Below, piece by piece: positions 10,233 to 64,000 of a stretch of DNA of 64,000 nucleotides; the first letter of the stretch is position 1, and each line of letters opens with the position of its first letter. The DNA is from Macrostomum lignano (taxonomy: Eukaryota), in contig NIVC01000517.1 in NCBI GenBank assembly GCA_002269645.1, positions 373,253-437,252 on the forward strand, in the 5' to 3' direction. Below the pieces are notes generated by a model. That model was not told where the DNA came from. It did no database searches and saw nothing but the letters and a program-made list of their open reading frames with translations. Made by a program: the position numbers and the translations under genes.

Positions 10233-10457
10233 GTGTTGTCTCACCTACTTTATTTTGTATAGCCTGGTAGCTAATTGCTGAACTAGATTTTGTACAGAAA
10301 CTGCCGCTAATGGAATTTCTTTCTGCATAATAATATAATAAATAGGCTGAACGAGAGGCTTAATTTAAGTTAGCTATTTGTGATTAGGCCTGCTCAGTCC
10401 TAAGAATAAGATTAAGCTTAAAATAAAGTTGTGCTTTTTAATAGGCCTAGATTAGTC

Positions 10458-16100: not shown

Positions 16101-19100
16101 GTTTATCCAAAGTTGCGTTAATTTTGAGTCAGGGTTTTTTTATATGTAAGTCGCATTTTTGGCCAAAAACTACGTCGCATTTTTGTTAAAATGAAGTCGC
16201 ATGGCCGACCGAATTTTGGAGGTTGCGCATGTATGTTGTGGGTATATATGTGCATATGACTATGATTATGGTGTTAAGAAATGCAGTTATAAGATGCTTG
16301 CCTGTCTCCCATACCCCAGGTACCTTTACGCCCAGTGCTGCCTAGAGACTGGCGACCTGAGCGCAGCAGAGGACGCCTTGATAAACAGCCGAACTGGCTT
16401 AGCATTTGCCACTACTCAGCCACAGGCTCAACAGACGCCAATTCAAACTGGATTGAATACCAATGACGATCTATCTAGACTCTGCAGAGACTTTGGCGGC
16501 GATAATTCGGAAGATTCCACAGCTGTTGGATTTGCTTTGAAACTTCTCGGCGACGTTTATCGTCGTACAGATCGAAATGAACGAGCCGCCGAGTGCTATA
16601 GGAGAGCGTTGGGCTTTAATCCTTATCTGTGGACCTGCTACGAGGCATTGTGCAGCCTGGGCGAGGCGCCAGATCCTGCTGTCGCGTTTCCGGTAGCTAT
16701 ACGATTTGCTTTATATTTGCCCTATCCATTGTTGAGTACATGGACCACTAAATAAAATAGATGTGACTTGCATTGTAGTGTCCATGGACCACTAAGTACT
16801 CGTATAGTAAATGTGTGACCTGTATTTTATGGTTCATGGACCACTAAGTGGAGTAGATGAGCATGCTTGGGCGCAAGCTAGGGATTCACCCGGCCGTTTC
16901 TATTGGCAACACACACGTAAGTCGCTATTGGACGGAATAGTAGTCACGTGACTGCTCTCAGCCAATAGCGACTTACATGTGTGTGTTGCCATTAGAAACG
17001 GCCGGGTGAATCCCTAGGTTGCGCCCAAGCATGCTCATCTACTCCACTTAGTGGTCTATGGACCACTAGGTCACTCATCTACCATGGACCAAGGTTGCGC
17101 ATGTGTGGTAGATGAGTGACCTGCATTGTTGGTTCCATGGATCGACTATCAAGTGGAGATAAGCAGTGTCCATGGACCATTAAGTAAAGTAGATGCGTGT
17201 GACCTGCATTGTTAGGACCATGGATCACTAAACTGATCGACACTGTTTCTTGGAAGCTTTTAAAGGCTCACCTTAACCCTAGAATTCTTGAGAATTATAG
17301 CGAATTTTAGTTAAATATTAAAAATACTTTAAATTATGCCCTCAGGTGCAGACAGCAACAGCAGGTCTGGACACCTCCTCGGCTTCCTCGTTGTCAGCTG
17401 ACTGCGGTGGCTTAGGCGGTGATGCCAGTTCAGTTGGTATAGCTAATAATAACAGCAATAGTACTCGACAGTTCTCAGTGGAATCGGCGGCGTCCACGGA
17501 TGCTTCTGGTTGGTTTGAATTTAATATAATAGCTTTATTGATGTTCCCTGACTTTTCTTATCTGGACTGGAGGCCCTGAATTCGACACTCTTGAACAAAA
17601 AATCTGGACTGGAGTCACTGAATTCGACACACTTAAACAAAAAATCTGGACTGGAGGCCCTGAATTCGACACTCTTGAACAAAAAATCTGGACTGGAGTC
17701 CCTGAATTCGACACTCTTGAACAAAAAATCTGGACTGGAGTCCCTGAATTAGACACCTTTAAACATAGATTCTGGATAGAAGTCCCTGAATTCGACACTC
17801 TTGAACAAAAAAATCTGGACTGGAGTCACTGAAATCGACAATAGACACCCTTAAACATAGATTCAAGATTCTGGATAGAAGTCCCTGAATTCGACACTCT
17901 TGAACAAAAAATCTGGACTGGAGTCCCTGAATTCGACACTCTTGTACATAAATATTGGATTGGAAACCCTCGGATTACTAATCACTTATCACTGAACTGA
18001 AGACAAATGCTAACATAACATTTCTCTCTTATTACCCCAAACATAGTTTCTGGCGCTGGTTTCGCTACCGTTTCGGTTGCCTCAGCCACCGCCGCCTCAG
18101 CTGCAGCTGCCACTCCAGCCGTTAGCGGAGTCATCCCGGCGCCGCCAGCCATCGCCGACGCGCCAATGCGACGAAGACCTAGAAGCGGTCGGCAGCAGCA
18201 GCAGCAGCAGATTGCTCCAGGAGCCGATTCGGCCGTTAATTTCCCCTACATTCTAGACTCTGCCTATTCAACTCCTTTGCCTTCGTCTATGGCTGCGTCC
18301 ACCGCTGCCGCAGTCGCCGCCGTCGCTGCGACACCCGCGGCATCCGCGGTAGCGACAGCAACGGTTCTCCCAGTGTCGACGCCTGTAGCGCAGAACTATC
18401 GTGCGCTGGCCATGTCACCACTGGGCGCCAAGGAGAACAATCAGGGAGTGCGAACGCGTGCCCAGACGCGATCGCTGATGTCATCGCGGGCTGGCAATAT
18501 TTCTAGGCGGAGTCGGTCGTTCCGGAGCAAAGATAATAGCTCAATGGAAGACGAGGTGAGTAGAAATTTTAATTATTGCTATAATAGATTGCATGCATAG
18601 CAGTTGACTTGAGACATAGGTATTAATAGCGGCAACGGAGATTATTAGACTGACGAACATACCAGGTAGAGTGACGGAGATTACAGGTAGAATTACGCAT
18701 ATTACAGGTAGACTGACAGACATTACTGATATTATATGTAGAGCTACAGATATTACAGGTGGAATTACGGCTATTACAGGTGGAAATACGAAAGTTACAG
18801 GTAGAATGACGGAGATTACATGTAGAAGTACTGATATTACAGGTAGCCTGAAGGAGAATGGAGATCACAGGTAGGATCACAGCTTAGAGGTAGACTGATG
18901 CAGAATACAGGTGGATTGAGGAAGATTACAGGTAGATCGGCGGAGATTACAGGTGGATTGACAGAGATTACAGCAGGTAGATTGAAAGAGATTACAGGTA
19001 GATTGGCGGAGATTACAGGTAGATTGACAGAGTTTACAGGTTGATTGACAGAGATTACAGGTAGATTGAAAGAGATTACAGGTAGATTGACTGAGATTAC

Positions 19101-24510: not shown

Positions 24511-24570
24511 GAAGGCACTGCGTATTCGTCAATGCGCCAAAAATAAAAAACAATTGCAGCCAACACAACG

Positions 24571-24843
24571 ATGGACGAAATTGAAGCGGCCCTTCAAACT
24601 GCCAGCATGCGCGAGTTTCTCACGCACTACAACCAGATGGTGCAGTCCTGCTTCAGCAGATGCGTGCACACCCTGTGGGACAGACGGCTGACTGATTCTG
24701 AGCTGAGCTGCAGCAATAATTGCATAGCAACTCTGATCGCTAGTCAGGGTCGCATCAGCCAGGCCTACCTGACAGCCAGCGGCAAAACCTTTGCTAGGCA
24801 GCCCGCTTCTGGTGCGGAGGATTCCGCTGGGACTAGTAGTTAA
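24571..24843 (+). CDS. TIMM10B: Small Tim mitochondrial intermembrane-space chaperone (twin CX3C), closest in pattern to Tim10b/Tim9
   Basis: REFLTHYNQMVQSCFSRCV...ELSCSNNC...LIASQGRISQAY. The family is clear; the paralog assignment is tentative. Confidence 0.8.
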   Translation: MDEIEAALQTASMREFLTHYNQMVQSCFSRCVHTLWDRRLTDSELSCSNNCIATLIASQGRISQAYLTASGKTFARQPASGAEDSAGTSS

Positions 24844-34941: not shown

Positions 34942-37900
34942 TTATGGTTCGATATTTTTTGTTAAGCGTCTTTTGTCTTCCTCATCCTCCGTAGCCACAT
35001 CGATTGCCTCTCCGCTTGAAGCTTCAACATTTAGCCAACGAACGGTTCGACGATCAACCGACTTTGCGCTGAGCCAAGCCTGGCATGGGAATCTTCGTCG
35101 CTCGCCAGATGGCTCGACAATGTCCACCGACTCCAGAAACCAGTGCGCGTAAGCTGAATCTCCTGGTCCATTAGCTAAGTGCTCAACTTTGATGCGTCTC
35201 AACTGGCCCACGTTTGGCAAGCCGGTCAGAAAAAACTTGTCGGTGCGACCTCGGGCAAACTGGCGTCGGTGGGTGCGGCTGTTGGACAGAAGTACCGGCT
35301 GCAACATTCGGGGGGAATGGTAGCGGAGCTCGGTTCTAATGCCAAATGTCAAAATAACAAACCATCAAAACCCATCGATCAGGGGCTGCTAATAGCTAAG
35401 CGATGACACGTCCAACCCTTAAGTCGAAAACGTACATAGCCGCAGGGGCGTCGCCACCGGTGGGGGGGGGGCAGGAACATGCCAATGCTTTGTCCCCCCA
35501 CCCCACCTTTGTTGACCTGTTATGGAAATCAATAATTTTGCTTCAGGGCGACAAAAATGGGGCCTGCGGCGCTAAAAAATAAGTGCCTGCATGCGGCGCC
35601 TAAATAAGTGCCTTTGGCGCTAAAAGGAGTTCCTGCGGCGCTGAAATGAGTGCCTGCGGCGCTAAAATGAGTGCCTGCGGCGCTAAAATGAGTGCCTGCG
35701 GCGCTGAAATGAGTGCCTGCGGCGCTGAAATGATCGCTGACAACACAGATTCTGCAAAAGATATACATGTAGAAACTTAGTCATGTAAATGTACGTGCAG
35801 AATTCTTGGCTTTGTCCCCCAACCATAAAATCCATGGCGACGCCCCTGCGTGTAGGCTCTAGAAATTTTCAGAGATCTGGTTCACTTTTTCAGCATTTTT
35901 ATTTTCAGCATTTATAACTCTCTACGCTAAGCTTCAATCGCTGCGTTTACTTTGCGCCGATATGTATCGATATTTTACTTCAGAATTAATTTAAAATCAC
36001 TGGATATCGAAATTTAAACAGAAGCAGCCGGCCGCTTACCTGCGAAGCGCCTCGATCTCCACACAGAGTGAGCCGCACCGGGTGCCTCGTACCGGCGCCA
36101 ACCCGATCTCCGGTAACCACGGTGACGGTGTAGTCAAAGCAATGAGGACCAGGAGCCGAAGCCGGAGGATCGTTATAGTAGTTTTCGAAATCGTCAGATC
36201 CGCCATTAAGTGACGATGCTGCATCCTCTGGTGGCGCTACGATGTGCACCACCTGTGGCTCCCCGTCTGCGTAAACCGAAGCTTCCGAACTTTCTCCGCG
36301 ACGAAAACCGTCGCCGTCGCCTTCTTTGGTGGTTTTACGACCGCCCGACTTTTTTCTACCGGTTGCTGCAACTTCAAGAGTCTCCTTTTTAGCCAAGCCG
36401 GCCCTCCCGCCCGACTGTCTGTCGCTGCCATCGGCCCCGCCGCTTTTGCCGTCCACATCTTCGGAGTCGCCGTCGGCGGCCAAATAGGTGAGAATTTCGC
36501 CGCTGCTTCGCACTAGGAAGCCGCGCTCTCGCCGACTGCACGGCATTGGCGGCGCCGACCGCAGAAATCCGTTGCTGCCCGCTGAAGTGTGGGATTTTCG
36601 TGCGGGATTTTTTTCCGATTTGGGGATTTTTTGCGACTTGGGGATTTTTGTGCGATTTGGGGATTTTTGTGCGATTTGTGGATTTTTGTGCGATTTGTGG
36701 ATTTTTGTGCGATTTGGGGATTTTTGTGCGATTTGGGGATTTTTTGCGACTTGGGGATTTTTGTGCGATTTGGGGATTCTCGTGAGATTTGGGGATTTTT
36801 GTGCGATTTGGGGATTTTTGTGCGATTTGGGGATTTTTTGCGACTTGGGGATTTTTGTGCGATTTGGGGATTCTCGTGAGATTTGGGGATTTTTGTGCGA
36901 TTTAGGGGATTTTGTGCGATTTGGGGATTTTTGTGCGATTTGTGGATTTTTGTCCGATTTGGGGATTTTTTGCGACTTGGGGATTTTTGTCCGATTTGTG
37001 GATTTTTTGAGCGATTTGGGGGATTTATGTGCGATTTGGGGATTTTTGTGCGATTTGGGGATTTTTTGAGCGATTGGGGGGATTTATGTGCGATTTGGGG
37101 ATTTCTGTGCGATTTGGAGATTTTTTGAGCGATTGGGGGGATTTATGTGCGATTTGGGGATTTTTGTGCGCTGGAGAGGACACAGATGAGTATGGAGAGG
37201 ACACAGTAGGGATGGAGAGGACACAGTGGGGATGGAGAGAACACAGTGGGATGGAGAGGACACAGTGGGATGGAGAGGACACAGTGGGGATGGAGAGAAC
37301 ACAGTGGGATGGAGAGGACACACTGGGGATGGAGAGGACACACTGGGGATGGAGAGGACACAGTTGGGATGGAGAGGACTCAGTGAGGATAGAGAGGGCA
37401 CAGTGAGGATAGAGAGGACACAGTGGGGATACAGAGGACACAGTGGGGATGGAGAGGGCACAGTGGGGATAGAGAGGACACAGTGAGGATAGAGAGGGCA
37501 CAGTGAGGATAGAGAGGACACAGTGGGGATACAGAGGACACAGTGGGGATGGAGAGGACACAGTTGGGATGGAGAGGACATAGTAGGGATGGAGAGGGCA
37601 CAGTGGGGATGGAGAGGACACAGTCAGTGGAAATATAGAGGACACAGTTGGAATGGAGAGGACACAGTTGGGATGGAGAGGACACAGTGAGGATGGAGAG
37701 GACACAGTGGGGATGGAGAGGACACAGTGAGGATAGAGAGGACACAGTGGGGATACAGAGGACACAGTGGGGATAGAGAGGACACAGTGAGGATGGAGAG
37801 GACACAGTGGGGATGGAGAGGACACAGTGGGGATAGAGAGGACACTGTGGGGATGGAGAGGACACAAGTGGAGAGGACACAGTGAGGATGGAGAGGACAC

Positions 37901-42600: not shown

Positions 42601-45600
42601 ATAATAAATTTTACATTTAATTGACTTGACAATACTACTGAGTATCTATTGCTTAATATATAATTATAGAGGGCCTAATGGTTTCTTGTTTTGTTATTTT
42701 TTATACTTGAAACTTTTGAACTCATAATATATGTATACATAGTAAATAAAGGAGAAATTCACATTCACAATCACACCTGACTTTGAAAATTTCATTAATG
42801 AAATTTGCTTGAAATTAAAAAAGGATAATTATAGTTTCTTAAAAAGAAATAGATGCATTATAATTTATTAAGTCTTTGTTTTCAAAAGAATTTATTATAA
42901 AAAATATATGCAATATGTAATCATCTTTAATGTTAGTATAAAAATTTCTCTTTCAATTTACTTTAGCATAGAATTAAAAAAATAGACTTTTGCTTGGTAT
43001 GATCTAGATTTTATGTTATATTGTATTGGTTGCCACTATATTATGGCTCATTCCATATAAGATGGACATTTTTGGAAAAAAGAAAAAAGTCAATATTTTT
43101 GCTTGCCATTGCCTTATCAGCCAATTTTTTTACCAAATGTTTTTTATGTGTAATATCTACAATCTAAGAATAAATGAATGATAAAATGTTAGATTAGTAT
43201 GCTATCAAGTGGCAAAAAGTCATTTTTGTAAAAATTTAGACATTTTTCTAAGCAAAAGACATCATTAAGTTTGTGTACCTTTTAAAAACAAATAGAAAGC
43301 TTTGGAAGGTTGAAACAAACTATAGATAAAAGTATAGTACTTGCATCATCAGATAAAAGTATTGGTGACCAAATAATCTATTATATTTTTAATATATTGG
43401 TACCTCAAAGTTACTGAATTGACAGAAAAAAATATGTTACGACCATAATGTTACGACCATAAGGCTGCCTTTTCTTTTGTATCTTTGTTGCCTTTTTGAG
43501 TTTATATATTCTACAAAAAAAGTATGATTACTAAAGATGTTCTTAGTCAAATTTTAAAAAATGTATTGCAAAATATCAAAAATAAAAATGTTATAAGACT
43601 TTTACCTTTTAGTTTCTGTATGTCAAAAATCCTGTTGTTACGACCATAAGTGCCATTCAAGGTTTAATAGCATCTATACTAATGATGATATCTACATGAA
43701 ACTCTATAAAAATATTTTTGACAAAATTATCTTTCATTTAAAATATTGGTTTAGTATATTCTATTATTATATTTCATTTTATAAGTAAAAATAGCCTGTC
43801 ATGTTACGACCATGCTTATATGGAATGAGCCTTATGTATATTATCTTTCCATTGAAAGGAACCCTAAAGCAAAAATTAACTAAAAAATAAAGAAGTAACT
43901 ATAATTGTCCTTTTAAGGCTAAATACTTTTTCAGCTGATTAGTATGTAATAGACATGTAATTACTATGTCTATATTTTTAGATAGGCATTTTTGCAACTT
44001 ACCTTGGCTGGGCTCCTTGCTAGCTAGCTAGGTTGGCTGGGTATTGCACATGTATTAGTGCATTCTAATGTTGGATTTAAAACTGCATTATAATTTTCAG
44101 CTTTAGGTGCCTTTTATTCAATTAGGAAATTAGGTTGGGTATACCAATATTAAAATTGCTGGAATAACTAGATATGGGGTTATCTAGTTATCTTGACATA
44201 TGGGGTTATCTAGTTTCTAGACATAGTGTTAAGAATAAAAAACAAGAATTTAACTCAATGTACACAAGTAAATGCAAGATGGATGAATTTCAGTCTAGAG
44301 AGCAGTAAGGAGAGAGGTCAAAGTCAGACAAAAAACTCAGCCTAAGTGGGGTAGGCCCAATCCATCTCAGCCAATCAGAGAGCAGTAAGGAGAGAGGTCA
44401 AAGTCAGACAGACAAAACGCAGCCTAAGTGGGGCAGGCCCAATCTAGCTCAGCCAATCAGAGAGCAGTACGAAAAAAGGTCAGTCAGACACGAGCAGGCA
44501 AGAGGCAGTCTAACTGGTTATTGGCTTATTACACGCACTGAGTTTGATGCAGGTGAAGATTCGATTTTTATGTGTTTGCTAGAGGCAACCATACATGCGC
44601 AACCTCCAAAATTCGGTCGGCCATGCGACTTAGTTTTACTTGAAGTAACAAAAATGCGACGTAGTTTTTGGCCAAAAATGCGACTTACATGTAAAAAAAC
44701 CCTAAAGCAAAATTAACGCAACTTTGGGTAAACGGCAGGAGTAACTATGACTGTCTTATAAATCAAAATGCTTCGTCAGCTACTTAGTAGTACTACTTTG
44801 GTATTTTTTCGGGTGGGCATTTTTGCGACTTCCTTGATTGGCCGCCAAATCGATCGGCCGACTCGGCCGACTGTTGCGCATGTATGGAGGCAACTGTTGC
44901 AGATTCAAAATATATCGTGTACAGTTTAGTAGATTCATTATATTAGACTATGCCGGTGTAGAATTATGCTAATTACCAAGTCTCTTACCCGACTGCGCAG
45001 AGCAAACTCGAACTAGTGACGGGATGCTCCTGCTCAACAATGACCCTAGAACTATACGACACCGAGGACAAACTAGTATGCACCCTATCTAACAATGACG
45101 CTATGCTGGGCTCCTATCCAGTCGAGGACGGCATGCGTATTCATGCCAACGATCCGGCTTCCAAGGGTGCTTTTGATTTTGCCGCTGCCGGAGCTTCGGC
45201 AGACGGTAAACCGCTCTACACTATGAGCGACGAAGAATACAGAAAGAAGGGCGACACATTTCTGCAGTTTAAAAAGGCCAATAAATTGGGTGAATTTGCT
45301 GAAGTCGATCCCGAAGCAGAGCGAAAGAACCGCGAAGCCGAAGCGGAGGAGAAAGCTCTAGCCGAGACTATCACTGTTGGCAGTCGGTGCGAGGTAAACA
45401 GTGATCCCAATCTACTGTTTATTTGCATTCTTCATATGATAGTTAGTTGTTGCTTTTGTACAAATCCTTACTTATTCGAAATTTAAATAAACTTAACAAT
45501 TGACATCCCAGTCTTCATTGGCCCGAAACCCATGAATTTTTGTTGGCTGACACCAGTCCTCTCCCTGAACCTTCAGCTGACACCTATCCCCTCCCTGAAC

Positions 45601-46816
45601 CTTCAGCTGACACCTATCCCCTCCCTGAACCTTCAGCTGACGCCAATCCTCCCCTCGAACCTTCAGCTGACACCAATCCTCTCCATGAACCTTCAACTGA
45701 CGCCAATTCCCCCCAAAACCTTCAGCTGACGCCAATCCTCTCCCTGAACCTTCAGCTGACGCCAATCCTCTCCCTGAACCTTCAGCTGACGCCAATCCTC
45801 TCCCTGAACCTTCAGCTGACGCCAATCTCCTTCCTGAACCTTCAACTGACGCCAATCCTCTCCCTGAACCTTCAGCTGACGCCAATCCTCTCCCTGAACC
45901 TTCAGCTGACGCCAATCCTATCCCTGAACCTTCAGCTGACGCCAATCCCCTTCCTGAACTTTCAGCTGACGCCAATCCCCTTCCTGAACCTTCAACTGAC
46001 GCCAATCCTCTCCCTGAACCTTCAGCTGACGCCAATCCCCTTCCTGAACCTTCAGCTGACGCCAATCCCCTTCCTGAACCTTCAGCTGACACCTATCCCC
46101 TCCCTGAACCTTCAGCTGATGCCAATCCTCTCCCTGAACCTTCAGCTGACGCCAATCCCCTTCCTGAACCTTCAGCTGACACCTATCCCCTCCCTGAACC
46201 TTCAGCTGACGCCAATCCTCTCCCTGAACCTTCAGCTGACGCCAATCCTCTCCCTGAACCTTCAGCTGACGCCAATCCTCTCCCTGAACCTTCAGCTAGC
46301 TCCAATCCTCTCCCTGAACCTTCAGCTGACGCCAATCCCCTTCCTGAACCTTCAGCTGACGCCAATCCTCTCCCTGAACCTTCAGCTAGCTCCAATCCTC
46401 TCCCTGAACCTTCAGCTGACGCCAATCCTCTCCCTGAACCTTCAGCTAGCTCCAATCCTCTCCCTGAACCTTCAGCTGGCTGACGCCAATCCCCTCTCTG
46501 AACCTTCAGCTGGCTTCATCCCCTTAACTCGTCAATATTTAACCCAGCCCCGCTGTCACCCCCTCCCCGTCCGCAGGTGTCCGTGCCCGGCCAGGCCTCC
46601 CGTCGCGGCGAGGTGGCATTCGTCGGCCAGACGAGCTTCAAGCCCGGCTGGTGGATCGGCGTCCGTCTTGATGAGCCGTTTGGCAAAAACGACGGCAGCG
46701 TAGCCGGCAAGCGCTACTTCCAGTGTCCGCCCAAATATGGTGGCTTCTTCAAGCCGAAAGATGTCGCCATTGGCGACTATCCCGAATTGGGATTAGACGA
46801 ATTAGATGAGATTTAA
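39611..46816 (+). CDS. TBCB: Tubulin-folding cofactor B; exons 39611-39730, 45001-45393, 46577-46816
   Basis: Ubl domain ([16 protein letters not shown]|SKLELVTG...LELYD...[13 protein letters not shown]) and CAP-Gly ([27 protein letters not shown]). GT-AG junctions in frame. Confidence 0.95.
39952..40506. mobile_element. Non-autonomous TIR element (555 bp), TIR CCATAGTC(T/C)(G/A)GATCATGGC, 8-bp TSD CATAAAAC
   Basis: 17/19 TIR match and exact 8-bp flanking duplication. Confidence 0.82.
40744..41530. mobile_element. 787-bp TIR element copy A, 17-bp TIR GGCTCATTCCATATAAG, 4-bp TSD ATTA
   Basis: Perfect TIRs, internal TGTTACGACCAT motifs, near-identical to copy B. Confidence 0.92.
43045..43831. 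mobile_element. 787-bp TIR element copy B, 4-bp TSD TTAT
   Basis: Same TIRs as copy A, different TSD and flanks. Confidence 0.92.
44297..44500. repeat. ~80-bp tandem repeat, about 2.5 copies, containing AGCCAATCAG
   Basis: AGAGAGCAGTA restarts at 44297, 44377 and 44459. Confidence 0.8.
44590..44886. mobile_element. hAT-type MITE (297 bp), TIR CATACATGCGCAAC, 8-bp TSD GAGGCAAC; inverted relative to the 15938 copy
   Basis: Perfect TIRs and TSD. Confidence 0.92.
45545..46515. repeat. 30-bp minisatellite (CCTTCAGCTGACGCCAATCCTCTCCCTGAA) in TBCB intron 2
   Basis: About 32 copies. Confidence 0.97.
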
Positions 46817-50100: not shown

Positions 50101-53100
50101 GAGAAATCGCCTTTAAAAATCCCAATTCCAAAATCCCAATGGGGAGAAATCTCATGTAAAAATCCCAAATCTAAAAACCCCAAAGAAACTATGGAATATA
50201 AAATGAATGTCAACTTAAACTCCGCAGGCGGATCCGGTGGCAGCGGTGGCGCTTCATCTCGCCGTCTGGAGCGCGCCCTGCACCAGCTGGAGGAGCTGTC
50301 CAATCAGCTGGCAAAGCCCGACCCGGAATTCTACCCGTTTAGGCGTAGATTATTTTTTGCTTGCAGCCTGCCGCCAGTCTGGCGACTTCAGCTGGATTTA
50401 GCTGACGCACTGGTAGCTGTTGGAGCCGTGAGCTCAGCCTTGGATATCTATCTGCGCTGGGATAGCTATTCTCAAATTATTGCCTGCTATCAGAAATTGG
50501 ACAAGCCCGCTTTAGCGGAGAAGATTATTAGAGATCGATTGGCTGAGTCTGAGACGCCCGAGCTGTACTGCGCGCTTGCCGAGGTTACAAGGTGAGAAGA
50601 GACGTTTTTTGAGAACGATATGACCGATGCAGGATCAAGGATAGTGTCCAGCGTCAAGAATCTGACATTAAAGTGTTCCCAATCTATTAGGTGCCATTTC
50701 CGATCTTTTAGGTTTCATTTCCGATCCATTATATTAGGATGCCGATTCTGATCTATTAGAGTTCCATTTCCGATCTATTAGGGTGCCATTTCCTATCTAT
50801 TAGGGTGCCATTTCCTATCTATTAGGGTGCCATTTCCGATCTTTTAGGGTGCCATTTCCGATCTATTAAGATGCCATTTTCGATTTATTAGATGCCATTT
50901 CAGTTCTATTAGATGTCTTCCGATTTATTAGGGTGCCATTTCCGATCTATAAGGGACAGGGTGTCAGTTCCGATATATTAGGTGCCATTTCCGATCCAGA
51001 GGTTCCATAGAGACATTGTTACTCACCCCCATGCCACTCCCACTGCCAGAGACTGGAACCACCTGCACACTGCCTGGCGCCTATCCAACGGTCGATGCGC
51101 TCGTGCCGCTCGTTCCCTAGGCTACGTTGCCATGGTAGCCGGGCAATACGCCGAAGCTATGCGCCAGTTCGAGCTGGCACTAGCCGCCAATCACCTGCAG
51201 CCGAAGGCCTGGTTCACCTACGGCTGCTGCTGTTTGCAAGCTGGCGAAATTGAAAAAGCCGAGCTTGCATTCCGCCGCTCCGCTCAACTGGAACCGGACA
51301 ACTACGAGGCCTGGACCAATTTGGGCACCGCTATGGTTCGTCGGGGCAATAAAATTGGCGCCTGTTCGGCGCTCCGCGAAGCGCTCAAATCTAATTGGGA
51401 ACAATGGCGCGTCTGGGATAATTATCTGGCTGTATGCGCCGATACTGGTCAGTTTAATGAGGCCATGCGAGCTTATCATCGATTATTGGAACTGCGGCCC
51501 AAATATTGGGATCCTCACTCTGCCGGGGTGCTCATTCGGGCAGCTTCTTCTGATGAGGAACTGATTGAGGATTCCGCTGCAAGGGAAGACCTGCGCAGGC
51601 GCCTGTTGACTCTGTTTGCTCGGGTGGCTGCGCAGTCCAGCGGCGATGCAGAGTTCTGGTGGCTGTACGCTAAGCTGCTGAGTCTGACTGAAGAGGGAGA
51701 GACAGGTGAGTGACTGGGGGTGACATGTTTTGACATGTGAGAGTCAGGTAGCTGATAGAGTGAGAGTCAGGTAGCTGATAGAGTGAGAGTCAGGTAGCTG
51801 ATAAAGTGAGATTCAGGTAGCTGATAGAGTAAGAGTCAGGTAGCTGATAAAGTGAGAGTCAGGTTGCTGATAGAGTGAGAGTCAGGTAGCTGATAAAGTG
51901 AGAGTCAGGTTGCTGATAGAGTGAGAGTCAGGTTGCTGATCGAGTGAGAGTCAGGTTGCTGATACAGTGAGAGTCAGGTTGCTGATAGAGTGAGAGTCAG
52001 GTTGCTGATAGAGTGAGAGTCAGGTTGCTGATCGAGTGAGAGTCAGGTTGCTGATAGAGTGAGAGTCAGGTTGCTGATACAGTGAGAGTCAGGTTGCTGA
52101 TACAGTGAGAGTCAGGTTGCTGATAGAGTAAGAGTCAGGTAGCTGATAAAGTGAGAGTCAGGTTGCTGATCGAGTGAGAGTCAGGTTGCTGATCGAGTGA
52201 GAGTCAGGTTGCTGATCGAGTGAGAGTCAGGTTGCTGATAGAGTGAGAGTCAGGTTGCTGATACAGTGAGAGTCAGGTTGCTGATAGAGTGAGAGTCAGG
52301 TAGCTAGTGAATGATATGTGAGCTGAGAGTCAGGTAGCTGATAGAGTGAAAGTCAGGTAGCTAGTGAATGAGATGTGAGGAGAGAGTTAGGTAGCGGATA
52401 GAGTGAGAGTCAGGTAGCTGATAGAGTGAGAGTCAGGTAGCTGATAGAGTGAGAGTCAGGTAGTAGAGTGAAAGTCAGGTAGCTGATAGAGTGAGAGTCA
52501 AGTAGCTAGTGAATGAGATGTGAGGTGAGAGTCAGGTAGCTAGTGAATGAGATGTGAGGTGAGAGTCAGGTAGCTAGTGAATGAGATGTGAGGTGAGAGT
52601 CAGGTAGCTAGTGAATGAGATGTGAGGTGAGAGTCAGGTAGCTAGTGAATGAGATGTGAGGTGAGAGTCAGGTAGCTAGTGAATGAGATGTGAGGTGAGA
52701 GTCAGGTAGCTAGTGAATGAGTGAAGTGAGAGTCAGGTAGCTAGTGAATGAGTGAGGTGAGAGTCAGGTAGCTAGTGGGTGAGATGTGAGAGTCAGGTTG
52801 ATCCACCCCATCATCATCAGGCAAGGCCAGTCTGAACGCGGAGTTAAAAGGCCGCATCCTGCAGACGCTGCAGAAGTGCCACCGCTGCGACACTCAACAG
52901 TCAGATTGGTTCAAGTCCTCAGCCGACAATCGAGACAGGGTGCTCAATAGGGCGGCCGATATTGCTCAGAGGTATTTGGATTTTGCCGAAGACTGCCCGC
53001 AGAGTCTGCTGTCGGCCAGGCTGATGCTTACCGGCCTGCTGGCTCGCCGGCTGGAAGATGGGCCGCCCATGCCGCCGCCTCCGGCTGAGCTGATGCAGCG

Positions 53101-55520: not shown

Positions 55521-55570
55521 CATGATTCACCATTCCAGCCGCTAAGTCCCCATCGTGAACAACCGTAGCC

Positions 55571-56602
55571 ATGGGTCGAGTCCGCACCAAAACTGTGAAG
55601 AAGGCCGCCCGGGTGATCATCGAGAAGTACTACACCAGGCTGGGCAACGATTTCCACATCAACAAGCGCGTCTGCGAAGAGGTCGCCATCATCCCGTCCA
55701 AGGCGTTGCGCAACAAAATTGCCGGCTTCCTCACCCACCTGATGAAGCGAATCCAGCGCGGCCCGGTGCGCGGCATCTCCATCCGTCTGCAGGAGGAGGA
55801 GCGCGAACGGCGGGACAACTACGTGCCCGAGGTGTCCGCTCTCGACGCCGAACAGCTGGAAGTTGATCCTGTCACCAGCCAGATGCTGCGGGCGATGGAG
55901 CTGAGCGTTGAGGTGCTCACTTATTTATGGCATTCACGCTGCCTGCATCTCGCTTTCCTGTGTCTGTTGGTGGCACTCAAGTCTCCCCCTCCCACCGTGT
56001 CACTGTCCACGTCTCGGAAATCCGGGGACTACTTCACCTCTTTCTGCTGTTCTCTTTGTGTCACCTCCCACTTTCCCTCTCTCACTCTCGCTTTCCTCTC
56101 CTCACATTCCTCTCCTCTGCCTCTCCTCTCACTCTCACTCTCCTCTCTCTCACTCTCCCTCTCCCTCTCCTCACCCCCCTCACTCCCTCTCCCTCTCCTC
56201 TCACTCTCCTTTCACTCTCCCTCTCACTCCCTCTTCCTCTCCTCTCACTCTCCATCTCACTCCCTCTCCTCTCACTCTCCCTCTCACTCCCTCTTCCTCT
56301 CCTCTCAATCTCCCTCTCACTCTCCCTCTCCTCTTCCTCTCTTCTCCCTCTCCTCTTTCTCTCCTCTCACTCCCCTCTTCCTCTCCTCTCACTTTCCCTC
56401 TCACTCCCTCTCCCTCTCTTATCCTTCTCTCTCCCTCTATCTTCTCACTCTCCGTCCCCCTCTCACTCTCCCTGTTCTCTCCTTCCCCTCTCCTGTTTTT
56501 TTCCCACTCATCCCACTGATCTAGGAACGTCACTCCTTTGCTCAATTTGGTAATTCATAGTCTAAAATACATTCAAATTTTCAGGTGACTGAAATCCAAT
56601 GA
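55571..56602 (+). CDS. RPS17: 40S ribosomal protein S17 (eS17); exon 55571-55912 plus probable short last exon 56585-56602
   Basis: [21 protein letters not shown]...[28 protein letters not shown]. The last exon is inferred from the TTTCAG acceptor; the donor GAG|GTGCTC is weak. Confidence 0.9.
56060..56520. repeat. CT-rich low-complexity tract in the RPS17 intron
   Basis: Directly visible. Confidence 0.93.
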
Positions 56603-56682: not shown

Positions 56683-57189
56683 AATTTGACGCTAATAACG
56701 TTATGTAACAATCTTAATTATATAGTTTGATTGGCTTGTTAGAGGAGTGCTTCTGTATCGGCTGATGGCTGTTAATGGAGCAAAATATCCTGAAATAGTT
56801 GAGGTTTTTGTTTTTTTCCTTTGTTTAATACATATGCACTAATCAGATGGCGAAGCATGCCCAAATGAAGTTGCAGCGATATTTACTCCCGCCGTTTACC
56901 CTGTCAGTCGCATGTAGCTACAAGAGTAGATCAGAGAGATCTGTCGAAACAGAAATGTAGCGTCTGTAAATATAGGTTAAACTATAGAAAATATATAATT
57001 TCTACGACTTTACTATCAGATGAGTATAGAACATTGAAGTCAGCTGTGCCGGGTGCCTTTTGATTTGCCTAGATAACATCCCCTCTCCTCACCCACAATT
57101 AAAACTTAGAAAATTAGTAGAATCAAAATGTATGGCGATCTGTCAAGACTTCGTCATCTGGAATTACCAAGGCCTACTAGTATATCTAT

Positions 57190-58005
57190 AAGTGTCCCTG
57201 GGGTAGCTACGTGTACCAAGGACGACTGGATAAAGTGTCCCTAGGGTAGCTACGTGTACTAAGGACAACTAGATAAATTCTTCCCGGGGGTAGCTATATG
57301 AACCAAGGTCAACTAGATAAAGTGTCCCTGGGGTAGCTACGTGTACCAAGGACAACTGGATAAAGTGTCCCTGGGGTAGCTACGTGTACCAAGGACAACT
57401 GGATAAAATGTCCCTAGTGTAGCTACGTGTACCAAGGACAACTAGATAAAGTGTCCCTGGGGTAGCTATATGTACCAAGGTCAACTAGATAAAGTGTCCC
57501 GGGGGTAGCTACGTGTACCAAGGTCAACTAGATAAAGTGTCCCTGGGGTAGCTACATGTACCAAGGTCAACTGGATAAAGTGTCCCTGGGGTAGCTACAT
57601 GTACCAAGGTCAACTGGATAAAGTGTCCCTGGGGTAGCTACATGTACAAGGACAACTAGATAAAGTGTCCCTGGGGTAGCTACGTGTACCAAGGTCAACT
57701 GGATAAAGGGTCCGTGGGGTAGCTACATGTACCAAGGTCAACTGGATAAAGTGTCCCGGGGGTAGCTATATGAACCAAGGACAACTAGATAAAGTGTCCC
57801 TAGGGTAGCTACATGTACCAAGGTCAACTATATAGTGTCCCTAGGGTAGCTTCGTGTACCAAGGTCAACTGGATAGTGTCCCTAGGGTAGCTACGTGTAC
57901 CCAAGGTCAACTGGATAAAGTGTCCCTGGGGTAGCTACATGTACCAAGGACAACTAGATAATTACTTCCCGGGGGTAGCTACATGTACATGTACCAAGGA
58001 AATGT
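57190..58005. repeat. 43-bp minisatellite (GTGTCCCTGGGGTAGCTACGTGTACCAAGGACAACTGGATAAA)
   Basis: About 19 copies, ending about 40 nt before the LTR. Confidence 0.96.
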
Positions 58006-58044: not shown

Positions 58045-58818
58045 TGTTGTGTAATGCAAAATCTCCGGGGGGCGGCTCGTGATCCTCGAGCAGCTACGGC
58101 CTCCTAAGACTAAATACCAGAGTACAAGTACCCCTTCAGGGTGGCGAGCCAGTGATGGCGTCCGACACTCCGACCGAGCTGCCGGTGTCGGGCGGTGCGT
58201 ACTATCGCTTCTCGTTCCTAGCCAGCAGCTCGTCCCTACGGCAGTACCCGATACAGTATGTCCCGTACCGAACAATGAACAACACAACGAGACTCAAGTT
58301 CTTACTGAGGAATGAACACGGCGGGAACGGCGGCGAAGGACTAGCCGGTAACGCGGATTCTCAGACGTTGCGTACCCGTAGGGGCGTCTCGGTTCTAATC
58401 GATATGGGCAGTGGAATCTCAGAGCTGAGTTGGGTTGGAAGGTAGCAGCCACAGTTGGTCCCTCACTGCCGCTACACCGCGCTAAATATATATTTGGGTT
58501 GGCCGGCTAGGCCGCGGGGAATCGCCCACCCGACCAGCCACACAACTAGCTTAGCACATTACAGCGAGAAAGCTGCTGATTGGCCGGTGCGTGAGAGAGG
58601 CGGCCCGTACCAATCAGCAGCTGCGCAAGAGACGGAAAAATTGGGGGGGGACGCGCTGAGAGGGGTGGCGCAGCCAGCCAAAGCCGGCTGGCTCAGACAG
58701 ACTGGGGTGGATGGTGCATACATGTAAACAACTGAGGAGGGAAAGTGCAGTGTCCCAGTGCGCCAATTAACTGCAAGCCTGAGATCGCTAGGCAGTGAAA
58801 GTACACTACGGCACAACA
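58045..58818 (-). repeat. 3' LTR (774 bp) with TGTTGTG...CACAACA termini
   Basis: 7-bp inverted termini. The - strand polypurine tract GGGAGGGGGAGGG (58831-58819) abuts the LTR start. TATA-like AAATATATATTT near 58490. Confidence 0.88.
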
Positions 58819-58967
58819 CCCTCCCCCTCCCAAAAGAGAAGGAAACAAAAATGGAAAAAAAATTACTATAAAGTACCATAGACGAACCATACAAAAGATT
58901 AATAGTGCAAGGACAGTGCAATGGCGAGACGAGCATTTGTAATTGCCTGCTGGCATTTTGCACACAG

Positions 58968-59540
58968 TTAAATATTATAAAATTCACGCGCAGCCGCAGC
59001 CAGTCGACCAGGTAGAGCCCCGTCGCTTCGCTCCTCAGCAAGCCAGGTCGCCGCCTTCCGGACATCAGTCGGCTTACCCGGGTTTCCCGCGAATGGTGCT
59101 GATGATGCAACTAGCAGCCGGTCGGACGGTATCTCTGCGACGCATCGGGCATGCCATCGGCTGTTGGAGACCCGGGCGGTGACTTCAAATTTCAGTCTTG
59201 GCAACGACGCTAGGTACAGGCTGAGGGTGTCTTTGGGCCAGTCGGAAGATTCGACAACTAGAATGCGACAGTTTGCAAAGTCCGACGACACTAGCAACCG
59301 TAAGAACTGGTGCCAGGCCGAGCCACCGGGTTCGACTGGGCTACGTCTACGCTCTCGCAAACGAACCAGGAGGGGTAGATCTTGTTTATTTGCTAGCCCA
59401 ACCTGTAGCTCCAGGGCTGCCATTTGTTGCTCCACACTGATTGCAGTATTCTGGACGTCCAACTCGGCTTCACCGACAGCCACTACCCTTGTCCATTCGC
59501 CCGCTATGAAACGCTGCAGGTCGGCAGCCAGCGTGGTCAT
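58968..59540 (-). CDS. Accessory ORF of the gypsy element, unknown function (~190 aa)
   Basis: Uninterrupted, non-repetitive ORF in element sense orientation just upstream of the PPT (MTTLAADLQRF...); no family recognised. Confidence 0.6.
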   Translation of the reverse strand: MTTLAADLQRFIAGEWTRVVAVGEAELDVQNTAISVEQQMAALELQVGLANKQDLPLLVRLRERRRSPVEPGGSAWHQFLRLLVSSDFANCRILVVESSDWPKDTLSLYLASLPRLKFEVTARVSNSRWHARCVAEIPSDRLLVASSAPFAGNPGKPTDVRKAATWLAEERSDGALPGRLAAAAREFYNI

Positions 59541-59663
59541 GAGCGGTGCCGCTGACGCCCTCAATCCGAGCGCAAAGTGGATCCGAGAGTCACATGAGCC
59601 GGGCAGTTGCGGGGTTTGACGGTCTCAAATAGAACGGTGAATTCACTACCGACACACAGGCTT

Positions 59664-60558
59664 CTACGCGACTACGCCGTCCAGGACAACTGGGGCAACT
59701 AGGGCATCTAGGTCTTCTTGAGGGCATTCTGGGTCGAGGAAATCCGCTTCATCGACGGCCTTCTCTGCCTGGTCTTTGGACTTCGAGTCCGGGGCCACTA
59801 GTACCGTTAGCTCTCGGAGTTTTGACAGGAGTGCCCCGCCGTTCAGCAGGCTCATTTTCTTGATGCATGTCATTACAAATCCGATTGATGCAGTCAGCGC
59901 TTCGTTCGACAGCACTCGAAGGCCCCGCCTAGATGACCCTGGGCGGCGCTTTCGAGGTGACACATCAGACGCTATGAAACTCAGCGCAACCCCTAGAGAA
60001 TCGGAGACCCATCGCCGAGATTCCAGGCCTGCCAAAAGGAACAGTTCTTCCAGTCCTGATATGCATTCCTGCGCCTGAGCGATCCGACCGATCCGCAGAT
60101 GCTGGGCCAGGTGATTCCGGAGGCTTCTGTATCTGACCTCAATCGACTCAGGGACTCTTGGTGGGCCTGATCGCGCGACCATTAAGACTCCACCCGCCGG
60201 CGCAATTGGGGTCGCATCAACGGCGGGAGGTTCGTCTTCATCGTCACTGATGACCACGATCCCCATGCTCTCGAGTCCGGCTCTTATTTCGTCCGGAAAA
60301 CTGACTCCGGGTGGCGGGCTGAAGAACTGCGCGTACGATAGCGTGTTGCTCAGGGCTGCTTAACCGAATTTGTCGTATAGCGCTTTATAAAACGGGTCGC
60401 TCAGGACTGAATACGTGAATACCACCCGTTGGTAGGCCCCTGTGCTTCGACGCCCACCTTGTCGGGGCGAAGTAGTAGTGAGCGCCGACGGAAGGCCACC
60501 TTTATATCTCTCGGTGAAGCTGATTGAGCTACGCCGAGCAGGTCGTACAGATCCGACA
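59664..60558 (-). pseudogene. J-domain (DnaJ-like) accessory ORF of the gypsy element, disrupted by one frameshift and one stop
   Basis: SDLYDLLGVAQSASPRDIKVAFRRRSLLLRPDK (frame 1), then GAYQRVVFTYSVLSDPFYKALYDKFG (frame shifted at ~60444). TAA at 60362-60360 is in frame with the 200-aa ORF 60266..59664. Confidence 0.82.
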
Positions 60559-60829
60559 CTGCAAGGCCAGCGTTCAACTTGCAGGCACCCCAAAAAATGG
60601 AACTTGCTAAACGCATGAAAATACAATTACAACTGTATGAAAATACGAACCCGTACTGTACTCAGCAACTTGGAGGCGCGATGAGAAGGGTGAGAAAATG
60701 CACATCCCAGAGCGATTGATGGACAGATTGGCTCAGATTAATAGAGGATTGGGTCTCCGAATCGACGTGGCGGAATTCCTCGATTCGCACGAACAGGGCG
60801 ACAATTGAAATCCTGCTCGGGAGGAGCGG

Positions 60830-63800
60830 CTACACGAGGCTGATGGTGTGTGATGCGCTGTGCCCAAATGGGCTCTGGGTCCAATTCAGCGTCACTGTTC
60901 TGCTCAGATTCAAAAAACTGGCATTGGGGATAGGAGCTTCCGGGCGGGAATATCGCTCACGTGACCTGGTTCCCGCCGTTGCCTGAGTCCTCCTTTGAGC
61001 AGGAACGTGGGACCTAGAGCTGGCATCGATTTTCCTTAGGTTGTTGAAATGGACTACCCTAGGCCTTCGCGCACCATCGTGCAGGATTCTGTAATTGACA
61101 TCGGAAAACTTTTTTAGGACTTTGGCCGGGCCTTTCCAATAGCGGTGGAACTTCGGGATTTCATTCGGTTTAATCACGGGATCGTATTCTAGAACAAGAT
61201 CACCTTCATTGATCTGAGCGCCACGAGCTTGGCTGTCATAAAGCTTCTTTTGCTTCCTCTGATAGGTTCTGAGATTCTCCCTCACAGCCTCGTGTGCTTG
61301 CTGAAGGTCTTCAGTCAGTCGACGAGTGAACTTGGAGAAACTCTCTGGCACCCTCTCAGTCGGATTCTCAATGTCGATCGGTAGCTGCATTTCCCTACCA
61401 AACAGAATGTAGTGCTAGCCTGTGCCTCTATGCACGCTAGAACGATAGGCTAGCAAACCGGGCGCAATGCAGTCTTCCCAATCCTTGTCCTCCTGCTCTA
61501 ACTGACACGTTAACATGTGCTTTAGAGTCCTATTAAAGCTTTCTGCTTGCCCATCCGCCATCGGATGATACGGAGTGGTTCGACACTTGCGGATGTCTAG
61601 CAGAGAACAAAGGTTCTTCATCAATGCTGACTCAAAGTTTGATCCCTGATCAGTGACTATCTCCTGTGGACAACCGAATGATGAAATCCAGTGCGTGAAG
61701 ATTGCACGGGCTACTGTTTTGGCACGCTGATTTGCTAACGGGATTGCACACGGCCATTTACTGAATGCGTCTTGGATTGTCAAAACAAATCTCGACCCAT
61801 GCTTGGACTTCGGCAAAGGACCAATGATGTCGCACATGATTCTTTGAAACGGAAATGAGCTCGGGATGGGTTGCAGTGGTGCCCTGCCTCTTGCGATGGT
61901 TTGCACTTTGAGCACACTAGACATGTTCGGCAGACTCCTCAACTCTACGAGACAGACCAGGCCACAAAAAGCGTTGCTTAAACTTTCCTTGAGTCTTCTT
62001 AACTCCGAGGTGGCATCCACTGACGCCATCATGAAGGATTTTGGCGGCTTCTTCGAACAGGGAATTTGGTAGGAGGATTCTCTTCTGTGAGTTCTCTGGC
62101 ACTGTCAGGAGCAGTAGCCCATCTTCTAAGACTATTCGAGTCCTATGGGCCCAGATCTCTCTCTCTCTCAACTAAACTACTGATCGGTTCATTTTGCAGC
62201 GCTTCACCTTCCAGTAACTGCCTTACTCGTTTCAGAGCTGGGTCAATTCTCTGAGCCTCTCTGATGCACTTGACGCTGAGAGGTGATGCTAACACAGCGT
62301 TCACTTGTTCAGGTGTTTGTGGCGAACTGTTACAGGAAGGGCACGACTCTTGGGCCCAATGCTTTCGAACTTTACGAGACACTGTCCGCATTCTGGTGAA
62401 AAATTCCTTTCCTGTGAACTATTTCAAACTCAAAACGCTGTAGCGTCTCTAGCCATCGAGCGCACTGTCCTTCCACATCTTTGAGGTTCGTTAACCATGA
62501 CAACGCACTGTGATCTGTTCGGATTTTAAATTTGCGCCCCAAGAGGTAATATTTGTAGGCCTTGACGAAGTGCACGATCGCAAGAAGTTCTAGTCTAGTC
62601 GTACAGTAGTTCTTTTCACACTCTGCCAGGGTCCTTGACCCATAGACAATCTCACTTTTTCGGAGCCGTCGGCTTGCACCTGAGACAGGACAGCTCCAAT
62701 TCCTATTTTGGAACTCGCGTCGGTGTCAAGCACATACTGTCCAGCTGTTTCGGAAAAATCTGGGTAAGCCATCACTCCAGTCGAAATCAGAAGTCTCTTT
62801 AATTCACAGAATGCTCCTTGCTGCTCCCGGCCCACTCGAACTTGGTGTTCTGGCGCAGGAGTTTGTACAGCGGAGCTGCTATGATCGAGAAATCACGGAT
62901 GAAATTTCTGTAATAAGAACAGAGACCAAGGAATGATTGTAGCTCTTTGACACAACTCGGAATAGGCCAATCGCTAATCTCTTTCGTTTTCGCTGGATCT
63001 GTAGCTATTCCTTCCGCTGAAACTACGTGGTCTAAAAACTTTGCCTCTTTGGACAGAAAATGGCACTTCTTTGCTTTCAGACGGATTCCTGCAGCTCGCA
63101 ATCGGTCGAACCGGTCGAACACGTGCTGCAGTCTCTTAAAATGCTCTTCATAGGACTTCGCAAAAACTATAATGTCATCAAAGTACACAAGGCACTCCTT
63201 CCATGACAGGCCAGTCATAACTAGGTTCATGAGCTTTACAAATGTGGCTGGGGCATTTTTCAGCCCAAAACTAACATAGCGCCACGCGAACTGACCGCGG
63301 TTTGGGATGACAAACGCTGTCTTCAACTGGTCTCTACGGTCCAGGGGGCACTGATGGTAGCCTGACGCTAGGTCCAGAGTGGAGAATACAGCGTTTCCTG
63401 ATAGAGCTTCAAGCGTCTCGTCCATCCTAAGTGGAGGGAAAGGATCAGGAACGGTGACGTCATTTAGCCTACTATCAATCTCCTTGTCGATCTCCGGGCG
63501 CAGATGAAGTGGGATGCGCCGCGGGGCTCGCGGGTCGGCTTCGCTGAGCCGGTGTCAATGGTGTGCATTGCTAAATCAGTGGCGCCTAACTCACTGTCAT
63601 CTTTTGCAAAAACGTCTCGATTTCGGCGAATCAATTCAGTGAATGAACCTTGCTGCTCTGGTGTCAAATCTGTTGACTCCCAGCTGCCGAGATTACTGAC
63701 TGGGTCCCAACTGGTGTCAAGGGTAACCAAGTTAGCCTGTGCTGCAGGTTTCACTTCCTGAGCAGGAGGTTGGTTATCGTTTACAGGGGTGAACCAACCA

Positions 63801-64000
63801 ACTTGTCTTCCTCTGGGCAGGGTCACTGGTTCGCCTAAGATGTTGGTTACTTTAATCGGCAAAAATCCTTCAGCTGATGGGATGCCAATGGCTCTGGCCA
63901 ATAACACTAATCCTTCATTCTGATAACGAGTCTCTGTTATTCCTGTGAACTGGAAATTCCGGACACCTTTTCGACTTAATTTGGCCTGAATGATTTGGGA
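60830..64000 (-). pseudogene. Gypsy pol polyprotein (RT, RNase H, integrase with GPY/F-type tail), multiply frameshifted
   Basis: FSTLDLASGYHQ, FGLKNAPATF, YFDD, LDTDAS, RTDHSAL, HxxxxxxHLG, CDIIGP, TDQGSNFES, TTPYHPMADGQAE, WKGP. Confidence 0.95.

What the first reader, a model, noticed from the sequence alone, without database searches (positions are those of the whole stretch)
58300..60561. Start codon of the J-domain ORF may be created by splicing from the LTR (A|TG)
Seen: the J ORF has no ATG at the domain start but begins right after an acceptor-like CCTTGCAG|TGTCGGATCTG (AG at 60560-60559). The LTR contains a donor-like CCTCA|GTAAGA (GT at 58305-58304 on -), about 185 nt downstream of the TATA-like box, with no ATG between them. 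Inference: if the unseen 5' LTR is identical, splicing gives A|TG TCG GAT CTG TAC = MSDLYDLLGV. That would be a subgenomic mRNA analogous to the spliced env mRNAs of insect gypsy elements.
Basis: inference. Interest (0 to 1): 0.7.

Follow-up and report, generated by a model that had tools for sequence, protein, structure and literature searches.

The report
Possible splice-made start codon in retrotransposon
A decayed jumping gene, probably of a flatworm, carries an extra gene (chaperone-like front, nuclease-like end) whose start codon may be pieced together by RNA splicing as in some fly retroviruses, but an ordinary start codon just upstream explains it almost as well and the splice itself is still unshown.

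Summary
The element is a decayed Ty3/gypsy retrotransposon. Between integrase and the polypurine tract lies a broken extra gene: J-like domain, unknown middle, TatD-like domain without its metal ligands. The donor alone is chance-level (GTRAG in 56% of shuffles); the donor-acceptor pair that gives a split ATG is about 0.5%, and split-AUG env splicing is known in fly springer elements (PMC12992720). The only relatives found, three Macrostomum lignano gene models, have a Met a few residues before the J-like start, just after their shared beginning. The junction could not be tested on confirmed RNA. A spliced subgenomic RNA is likely (~80%); the LTR A|TG junction ~40%; the genomic ATG ~33%. The extra gene itself is the less familiar part.

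The parts
60830..64000 (-). Decayed pol: RT, RNase H, integrase core and integrase C-terminal domain, spread over six reading-frame pieces; runs off the window
   Evidence: Pfam RVT_1 1.7e-25, RT_RNaseH 1.2e-22, rve 2e-12, Integrase_p58_C 1e-9; best PDB hits Ty3 RT 2.6e-45 and 1.9e-44; ORF pieces
60661..60665 (-). CTGAG, branch-point-like, 31 nt before the AG at 60634 (label from recalled consensus)
60633..60634 (-). Rival splice acceptor (TTTTTCATACAG), 6 T in positions -14..-5; the first ATG after it is the in-frame ATG 60616
60614..60616 (-). In-frame genomic ATG, 19 codons before the GTG; weak context (T at -3)
60559..60560 (-).
   Evidence: motif from PMC8629364 Results
60410..60559 (-). 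J-like domain, first part (helices I-II); no HPD motif; the frame changes before the last helix
   Evidence: PF00226 E 5.7e-7, profile 1-33 of 63
59664..60440 (-). End of J-like domain and middle region of unknown fold; stops at 60362-60360 and 59666-59664
   Evidence: no Pfam hit, no Atlas hit; collinear with P0001 at 28% identity, E 9e-36; the stop at 60362-60360 is also in X6 contig 24
58968..59624 (-). TatD-like domain; the Glu of the VAVGE strand is kept, the His and Asp ligand positions are replaced here and in the sister family
   Evidence: PF01026 E 2.3e-8, 34.2 bits over cut-off 27; alignment; 11 PDB hits, all TatD family
58819..58831 (-). Polypurine tract
58045..58818 (-). 3' LTR, 774 nt, TGTTGTG...CACAACA; no AATAAA, no heat-shock element
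   Evidence: loose ends at 58819 in 4 of 4 runs
58484..58492 (-). TATA-like box
58300..58308 (-). Donor-like TCA|GTAAGA; overlaps AGTAAG, the only poly(A)-signal-like hexamer seen after the TATA apart from ATTACA at the LTR end
   Evidence: unchanged in X6 contig 22
58268..58297 (-). G/T-rich tract, tied for highest in the LTR (0.8); fits either an intron start or a downstream poly(A) element

Best explanation
In intact members of this Ty3/gypsy family the extra gene behind pol (J-like + middle + TatD-like) is one reading frame made from a spliced subgenomic mRNA. Transcription starts in the 5' LTR about 30 nt after the TATA, a leader of about 155 nt without ATG ends at the A of TCA|GTAAGA, gag-pol is removed as an intron, and the acceptor at 60560-59 supplies TG, so the start codon exists only after splicing and the Met sits directly before SDLYDLL. 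Shown: motifs, phase, ATG-free leader, gene order, homology. Inferred: start site, the 5' LTR of this copy, use of both sites, translation. The copy in the window is dead. The product lacks HPD and the TatD ligands, so it most likely binds (nucleic acid or a host chaperone partner) and is not an enzyme; that part is a guess.
For: Phase and motifs exact. Pair rarer than chance: 0.16 x 0.02-0.034. Leader free of ATG. X6 contig 22 (58068-58497, depth 764) differs from the window at 4 letters and 1 gap, all listed and none at the donor, so the motif is not private to this copy. X16 contig 16 spans 58094-58819 and runs on into another flank, so a 5' or solo LTR covering the donor position exists. 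Both sites fit the top M. lignano motifs GTRAG and CAG/YTNCAG (PMC8629364 Results). Three sister-family gene models with unrelated upstream parts converge just before the J-like start, as expected if an exon begins there. [quoted passage not shown]
Against: In-frame ATG 60616 behind a more T-rich acceptor with a branch-like motif. The sister family has a Met 8 residues before DLY, preceded by a shared RT, with Thr before it giving A at -3, so there the start looks genomic. The donor alone is common (0.56); 2 of the 31 GT sites after the TATA match the consensus better (58375, 58117) and 8 tie on my crude score. The donor overlaps the only poly(A)-signal-like hexamer in a LTR without AATAAA, whereas the M. 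lignano id38 LTR shows AATAAA. Identity of the donor among copies 1-2% apart is expected anyway. A variant present in DNA lacks 59497-60617, acceptor included, so the gene is dispensable for some copies.
Confidence: 0.4

Rival explanations
1. Spliced RNA, but a genomic start: the acceptor at 60634-33 (or 60670, 60657) is joined to any upstream donor or to the host spliced leader, and translation starts at ATG 60616, giving 19 extra residues before the J-like domain.
For: ATG 60616 is the first ATG after these three acceptors and in frame; the 60634 site has 6 T in -14..-5 and CTGAG 31 nt upstream. Same layout as the sister family: shared start, two residues, Met.
Against: An upstream in-frame ATG arises in 39% of shuffles; weak context (T at -3); the 19 codons are U-rich and look intron-like; it leaves the 0.5% donor-acceptor coincidence unexplained.
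Confidence: 0.33
2. No splicing: an internal promoter in integrase or the spacer makes the RNA, as for Tor3b/4b env, starting at ATG 60616 or at a near-cognate codon.
For: Precedent in PMC4402516 (section 18 read). The 270-nt spacer has room.
Against: No TATA-like box noticed in the spacer; an out-of-frame ATG at 60705 with a long open frame lies upstream; acceptor-like sites cluster before the gene.
Confidence: 0.1
3. The host spliced leader, which ends in AUG in flatworms, supplies the start codon at a phase-0 acceptor (60657-56 CAG or 60579-78 AAG), resolving a dicistronic element RNA as for host operons.
For: 30% of M. lignano genes are trans-spliced and the leader ends in ATG (PMC8629364 Results); the leader AUG can initiate (PMC9851317 passages, citing Cheng 2006). 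The J frame is open from 60661.
Against: The only YTNCAG site of the 7 examined is 60560, which is phase 1 and would put a leader AUG out of frame; the phase-0 sites have poor pyrimidine tracts. The host is only inferred.
Confidence: 0.07
4. The LTR motif is not a donor but the element's poly(A) signal variant (AGTAAG followed by a G/T-rich tract). Compatible with the three rivals above.
For: No AATAAA or close variant after the TATA (variant list recalled); G/T-rich tract begins 9 nt later; CUCA...UUGAG closes a small hairpin over it.
Against: AGTAAG is two letters from AATAAA; U-rich tracts also follow donors; the region folds worse than shuffles (z +2.2).
Confidence: 0.2
5. Other copies carry a genomic start codon at the domain start and the acceptor look is an accident of this decayed copy.
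For: The copy has many breaks.
Against: No row at 60550-60570 among the 40 of 242 differences shown (rows not shown cannot be checked); it needs a change at one exact letter in a copy 1-3% from its relatives.
Confidence: 0.05

Closest known systems
Springer-subclade insect ERVs (gypsy, Springer): env from a spliced subgenomic RNA joined to an AU dinucleotide (PMC12992720 passage; PMC13097621 passages)
   Same: Ty3/gypsy order RT-RH-IN then a third gene; short AUG-free leader from the 5' LTR; GTAAG donor; start codon split over the junction.
   Different: Here the split would be A|UG, not AU|G; the donor lies inside the LTR, not 43 nt after it as in Springer; the third gene is not an F-type envelope; splicing is not shown.
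Tor elements of Oikopleura (PMC4402516, abstract and section 18)
   Same: Ty3/gypsy-like elements with a third gene in a host that trans-splices (recalled); some splice it from the 5' LTR.
   Different: Tor3a donors lie near the gag start and are non-canonical; Tor3b/4b use an internal promoter; the gene is env.
M. lignano gene models A0A1I8I457, A0A1I8I0H8, A0A1I8HEH7 ('J domain-containing protein', 'ribonuclease H')
   Same: Same J-like, middle, TatD-like order; 28-39% identity; no HPD; same ligand positions replaced; repeated (429 of 437 residues alike between two models).
   Different: A genomic-looking Met precedes the J-like domain; no DNA context seen, so a place inside an LTR element is not shown for them.
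RTEX-2_BF of amphioxus, DnaJ domain captured in ORF1 (PMC3597677, supplement passage)
   Same: A retrotransposon that took up a DnaJ domain.
   Different: Non-LTR element, domain inside ORF1; no TatD found in that paper's text or 4 of its 5 supplements.
TatD deoxyribonucleases (PF01026)
   Same: Sequence profile over 184 residues; VAVGE strand, LP..V and RLL motifs.
   Different: His and Asp ligand positions replaced; fused behind a J-like domain; inside a retrotransposon.

Membership tests
Ty3/gypsy LTR retrotransposon (Metaviridae) | RT, RNase H, integrase in that order | tested here: met
   Pfam; positions 63554-60830
Ty3/gypsy LTR retrotransposon (Metaviridae) | RT closest to Ty3-type RTs | tested here: met
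   Ty3 RT E 2.6e-45, ahead of caulimovirus-type, foamy and MLV RTs among 12 PDB hits; clade within Ty3/gypsy not tested
Ty3/gypsy LTR retrotransposon (Metaviridae) | PPT followed by a TG...CA LTR | tested here: met
Ty3/gypsy LTR retrotransposon (Metaviridae) | Two LTRs, PBS, gag, target-site duplication | not testable with these tools
   Outside the window; no genome held; 0 loci
Errantivirus-type split-AUG env expression | Third gene is an F-type envelope | tested here: not met
   Pfam gives DnaJ and TatD, no envelope family
Errantivirus-type split-AUG env expression | AUG-free leader, donor and in-phase acceptor that compose AUG | tested here: met
   (sequence only)
Errantivirus-type split-AUG env expression | Spliced subgenomic RNA with that junction exists | tested here: inconclusive
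   Only contigs of runs guessed to be RNA could be laid; contigs show presence, not absence
Errantivirus-type split-AUG env expression | No usable genomic start codon before the gene | tested here: not met
   In-frame ATG 60616; its use is unknown
J-domain protein (Hsp70 co-chaperone) | J-domain profile | tested here: met
   PF00226 30 bits over cut-off 27.8, partial; sister E 0.007, below cut-off
J-domain protein (Hsp70 co-chaperone) | HPD motif (recalled as essential) | tested here: not met
   Absent in the window and in P0001; other copies of this family not readable
TatD DNase | TatD profile / TIM barrel | tested here: met
   by sequence; single-sequence model too poor to search (pLDDT 41)
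TatD DNase | Metal-binding His/Glu/His/His/Asp set (roles recalled) | tested here: not met
   Against P0003 and P0004 only the Glu is kept, in both families; the N-terminal HxH part lies outside the aligned piece
HSE-bearing M. lignano LTR families (PMC12801592) | Canonical heat-shock element in the LTR | tested here: not met
   0 matches; 0 of 3 window motifs in the supplements

The most novel reading that the evidence does not exclude
A flatworm Ty3/gypsy lineage has replaced the env slot with a long-kept accessory gene made of a J-like domain and a catalytically dead TatD barrel, and gates its translation by RNA processing: the start codon exists only after an A|UG splice from a donor in the LTR (or after addition of the host spliced leader), so the protein is never made from genomic RNA. 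A dead nuclease barrel with a chaperone-like head could be a counter-defence or RNA-handling factor.
Probability: 0.3. Interest if true: 0.68.

Novelty: new variant of a known kind. Interest (0 to 1): 0.45.

Why it matters
If true it would extend start codons made by splicing from fly errantiviruses to an unrelated Ty3/gypsy lineage, with another phase (A|UG), a donor inside the LTR and a non-envelope cargo, pointing to a recurring way of keeping a third gene silent on genomic RNA. It also explains why such genes are missed or mis-modelled by gene finders. The cargo, a J-like/TatD-like pseudo-enzyme shared by two families about 30-39% alike, was not found in my literature searches and is testable in a tractable host if the host is Macrostomum.

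Tried and rejected
No genome held, so no 5' LTR or other copies could be read. Sequencing runs: no RNA holder listed; 20 of 24 rows hold the stretch or part. I laid 4 of the 24 (three guessed RNA, one guessed DNA; all contigs): 0 of 6 joints link the LTR to either acceptor, and 0 of the 24 loose ends shown (of 70) lie at 58306, 60558 or 60632; contigs drop rare forms and the RNA label is a guess, so this counts neither way. First reading of depth as hundreds of copies rejected: X6 contigs at depth 280-320 match the window at 0-2 letters and are probably this locus, so the family looks low-copy (inference). Protein searches: middle piece 0 of 7999 candidates, TatD-like piece 0 of 1587, sister region 1 of 8000, phmmer 4 hits of which 2 are true TatD; Atlas blank twice. 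Locus scans gave 0 loci: metagenomes, viral contigs. Selection test on the 17 shown differences inside the TatD-like frame: 8 silent, 9 not, expected 31% silent, p 0.13, not significant. AlphaFold single-sequence model pLDDT 41, not searched. RNA folds: LTR leader z +2.2, acceptor region z -2.1, 5 of 200 shuffles as stable, not interpreted. Heat-shock link rejected: no HSE. The second A|GTRAG at 58466 rejected as donor: it lies at the presumed start site and other copies differ at 58467. No second copy of the element in the window. Earlier scan notes: 0 hits, one unrelated. The Atlas, MaxEntScan-type scoring and Repbase/GyDB classing were blank or not on hand.

Full report
Observation. On the minus strand the AG lies at 60560-59 and is followed by TGTCGG; the GT lies at 58305-04 in CCTCA|GTAAGA; the one TATA is at 58492 and no ATG falls between it and the GT. 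The phases fit: A 58306 with TG 60558-57 is in the frame of SDLYDLL.

What the element is. The last 6 kb of the window are the 3' part of a Ty3/gypsy retrotransposon: RT, RNase H and integrase in six frame pieces, RT closest to Ty3 among 12 solved structures, a purine run at 58831-58819 and a 774-nt LTR with 7-nt inverted ends. All 4 runs laid show other flanks at 58819, which fixes that LTR edge and shows 5' or solo LTRs. Between integrase and the purine run lies a broken third gene: a J-like domain (PF00226, E 5.7e-7, no HPD), a middle without any hit, and a TatD-like domain (PF01026, E 2.3e-8; 11 of 11 PDB hits are TatD family). Against two true TatD proteins the His and Asp ligand positions are replaced and only the Glu is kept (roles recalled). 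It is broken by a frame change within the J-like domain, stops at 60362-60360 and 59666-59664, and a further frame change before 59624. X6 contigs 24, 27, 28 and 29 match the window at 0-2 letters, so these breaks are in the DNA and this copy is dead. The runs also show a variant lacking 59497-60617 and at least one other J-bearing copy about 97% alike; I read the family as low-copy (inference from depth).

Relatives and host. A full phmmer scan gave 4 hits: two M. lignano gene models (E 5e-21, 1e-18) and two ordinary TatD proteins. A third model came from 8000 candidates. The first is collinear with the whole extra gene (E 9e-36, 28%), so the fusion is old and shared by two families. The three models have unrelated upstream parts and converge at RT followed by Met, 8 residues before DLY. 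The simplest reading is a predicted exon start just before a genomic ATG with A at -3; I saw no DNA, so this is inference, and their place inside LTR elements is not shown. The host is probably Macrostomum (about 75%; from these names and a window that is 26% tandem repeat; the repeat-rich genome is recalled).

Is it more than chance? In 5000 dinucleotide shuffles GTRAG appears in the 416 nt after the presumed start in 56%, A|GTRAG in 16-17%; an in-frame YAG|TG within 36 nt of the domain start in 2.0-3.4%; the AT|G alternative in 6.7% x 2.8%; an open upstream ATG in 39%. So the donor alone means little, the pair is about 0.5%, and the rival ATG is cheap. Three things pull it back: the sister family's genomic Met; a more T-rich acceptor at 60634 with CTGAG 31 nt upstream whose first downstream ATG is 60616; and the overlap of the donor with the only poly(A)-signal-like hexamer of an LTR that lacks AATAAA and has a G/T-rich tract right after it, while another M. 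lignano LTR shows AATAAA. The best-covered LTR contig (X6 22) has all 4 differences and its gap listed, none at the donor, so the motif is shared; at 1% divergence that is not evidence of selection. For the acceptor and ATG 60616 only 40 of 242 differences were shown, none there; the rest cannot be checked.

Mechanism. Most likely (about 80%, inferred) the third gene is read from a processed subgenomic RNA entering through an acceptor in the spacer. M. lignano trans-splices 30% of its genes to a leader ending in ATG, with YTNCAG as top acceptor motif (PMC8629364, Results part 1 and passages read). The 60560 site is the only YTNCAG of 7 acceptors examined, but it is phase 1, so a leader AUG there would be out of frame. 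The junction itself remains untested on confirmed RNA; what was tried is under Tried and rejected.

Comparison with what is known. It works like springer-subclade env expression, where the env exon is spliced from an AU dinucleotide (PMC12992720, passages) with donor GTAAGTG 43 nt after the LTR and an AUG-free leader (PMC13097621, passages), but it is no errantivirus: no envelope, other phase, donor inside the LTR. Tor elements show both LTR splicing and internal promoters for a third gene (PMC4402516, abstract and section 18). DnaJ capture is known in a non-LTR element of amphioxus (PMC3597677, main-text passages and supplement passage; 4 of 5 supplements searched, TatD 0). The M. lignano LTR survey (PMC12801592, parts 1-3 of 6, supplement 1, part 1 of supplement 5, and a term search of all 5) covers heat-shock elements; this LTR has none and 0 of 3 window motifs were found there, though long alignment rows were cut at 400 characters. 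PMC11952523 (passages) and PMC9851317 (passages) were seen for background. Searches gave no paper on a J/TatD gene in an LTR element or on splicing of such a gene; the 2020 classification of M. lignano LTR elements, Repbase and subscription journals were not searchable, and appendix figures of PMC12992720 were not seen.

Verdict. Observation confirmed; interpretation partly supported and roughly level with an ordinary rival. New variant of a known kind; interest 0.45. If the splice-gated J-like/dead-TatD accessory gene is real (about 0.3) it would merit about 0.68.

Noticed in passing
window 58968-60559 (-): The extra gene is a J-like + unknown + TatD-like fusion with HPD and the TatD ligands missing in two families 28-39% alike; not found in paper searches. 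Probably more unusual than the splice question.
   Followed up: partly
window 59497-60617; joint table: A variant present in the DNA-guessed run and all three RNA-guessed runs lacks this 1121-nt stretch (acceptor, J-like, middle, start of TatD-like); its longest contig also has 558 other letters in place of 62417-62975 and diverges beyond 63110: a deleted, possibly recombinant subfamily.
   Followed up: partly
window 60504-60596; A minor DNA variant (depth 76) skips 93 nt including the acceptor and the J-like start, with 2 letters fitting either side.
   Followed up: no
window 58045-58818: The LTR has no AATAAA; CCTCAGT occurs twice (near 58737 and 58310) and resembles a recalled arthropod initiator; the poly(A) site is unexplained.
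   Followed up: partly
window 57131-57990: The element's 3' end sits beside a 43-nt tandem array; tandem repeats cover 26% of the window (85 arrays).
   Followed up: no
window 37-612, 3824-4666, 10422-10691, 16195-16752, 24547-24840, 34945-35364, 44962-46813, 50982-51710, 55559-55900: Host gene pieces by Pfam (10 of 12 pieces hit): fibrinogen C, Mab-21 C-terminal (cGAS-like family), APC3/CDC27-like TPRs, Tim10/DDP, PLAT, TBCB-like (Ubiquitin_2 + CAP-Gly), TPR protein, ribosomal S17e.
   Followed up: no
P0001, P0002, P0019: These UniRef M. lignano models look like chimeras of unrelated exons around the same repeated J-like/TatD-like unit; P0002 is named after a non-LTR RNase H that lies upstream.
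   Followed up: partly
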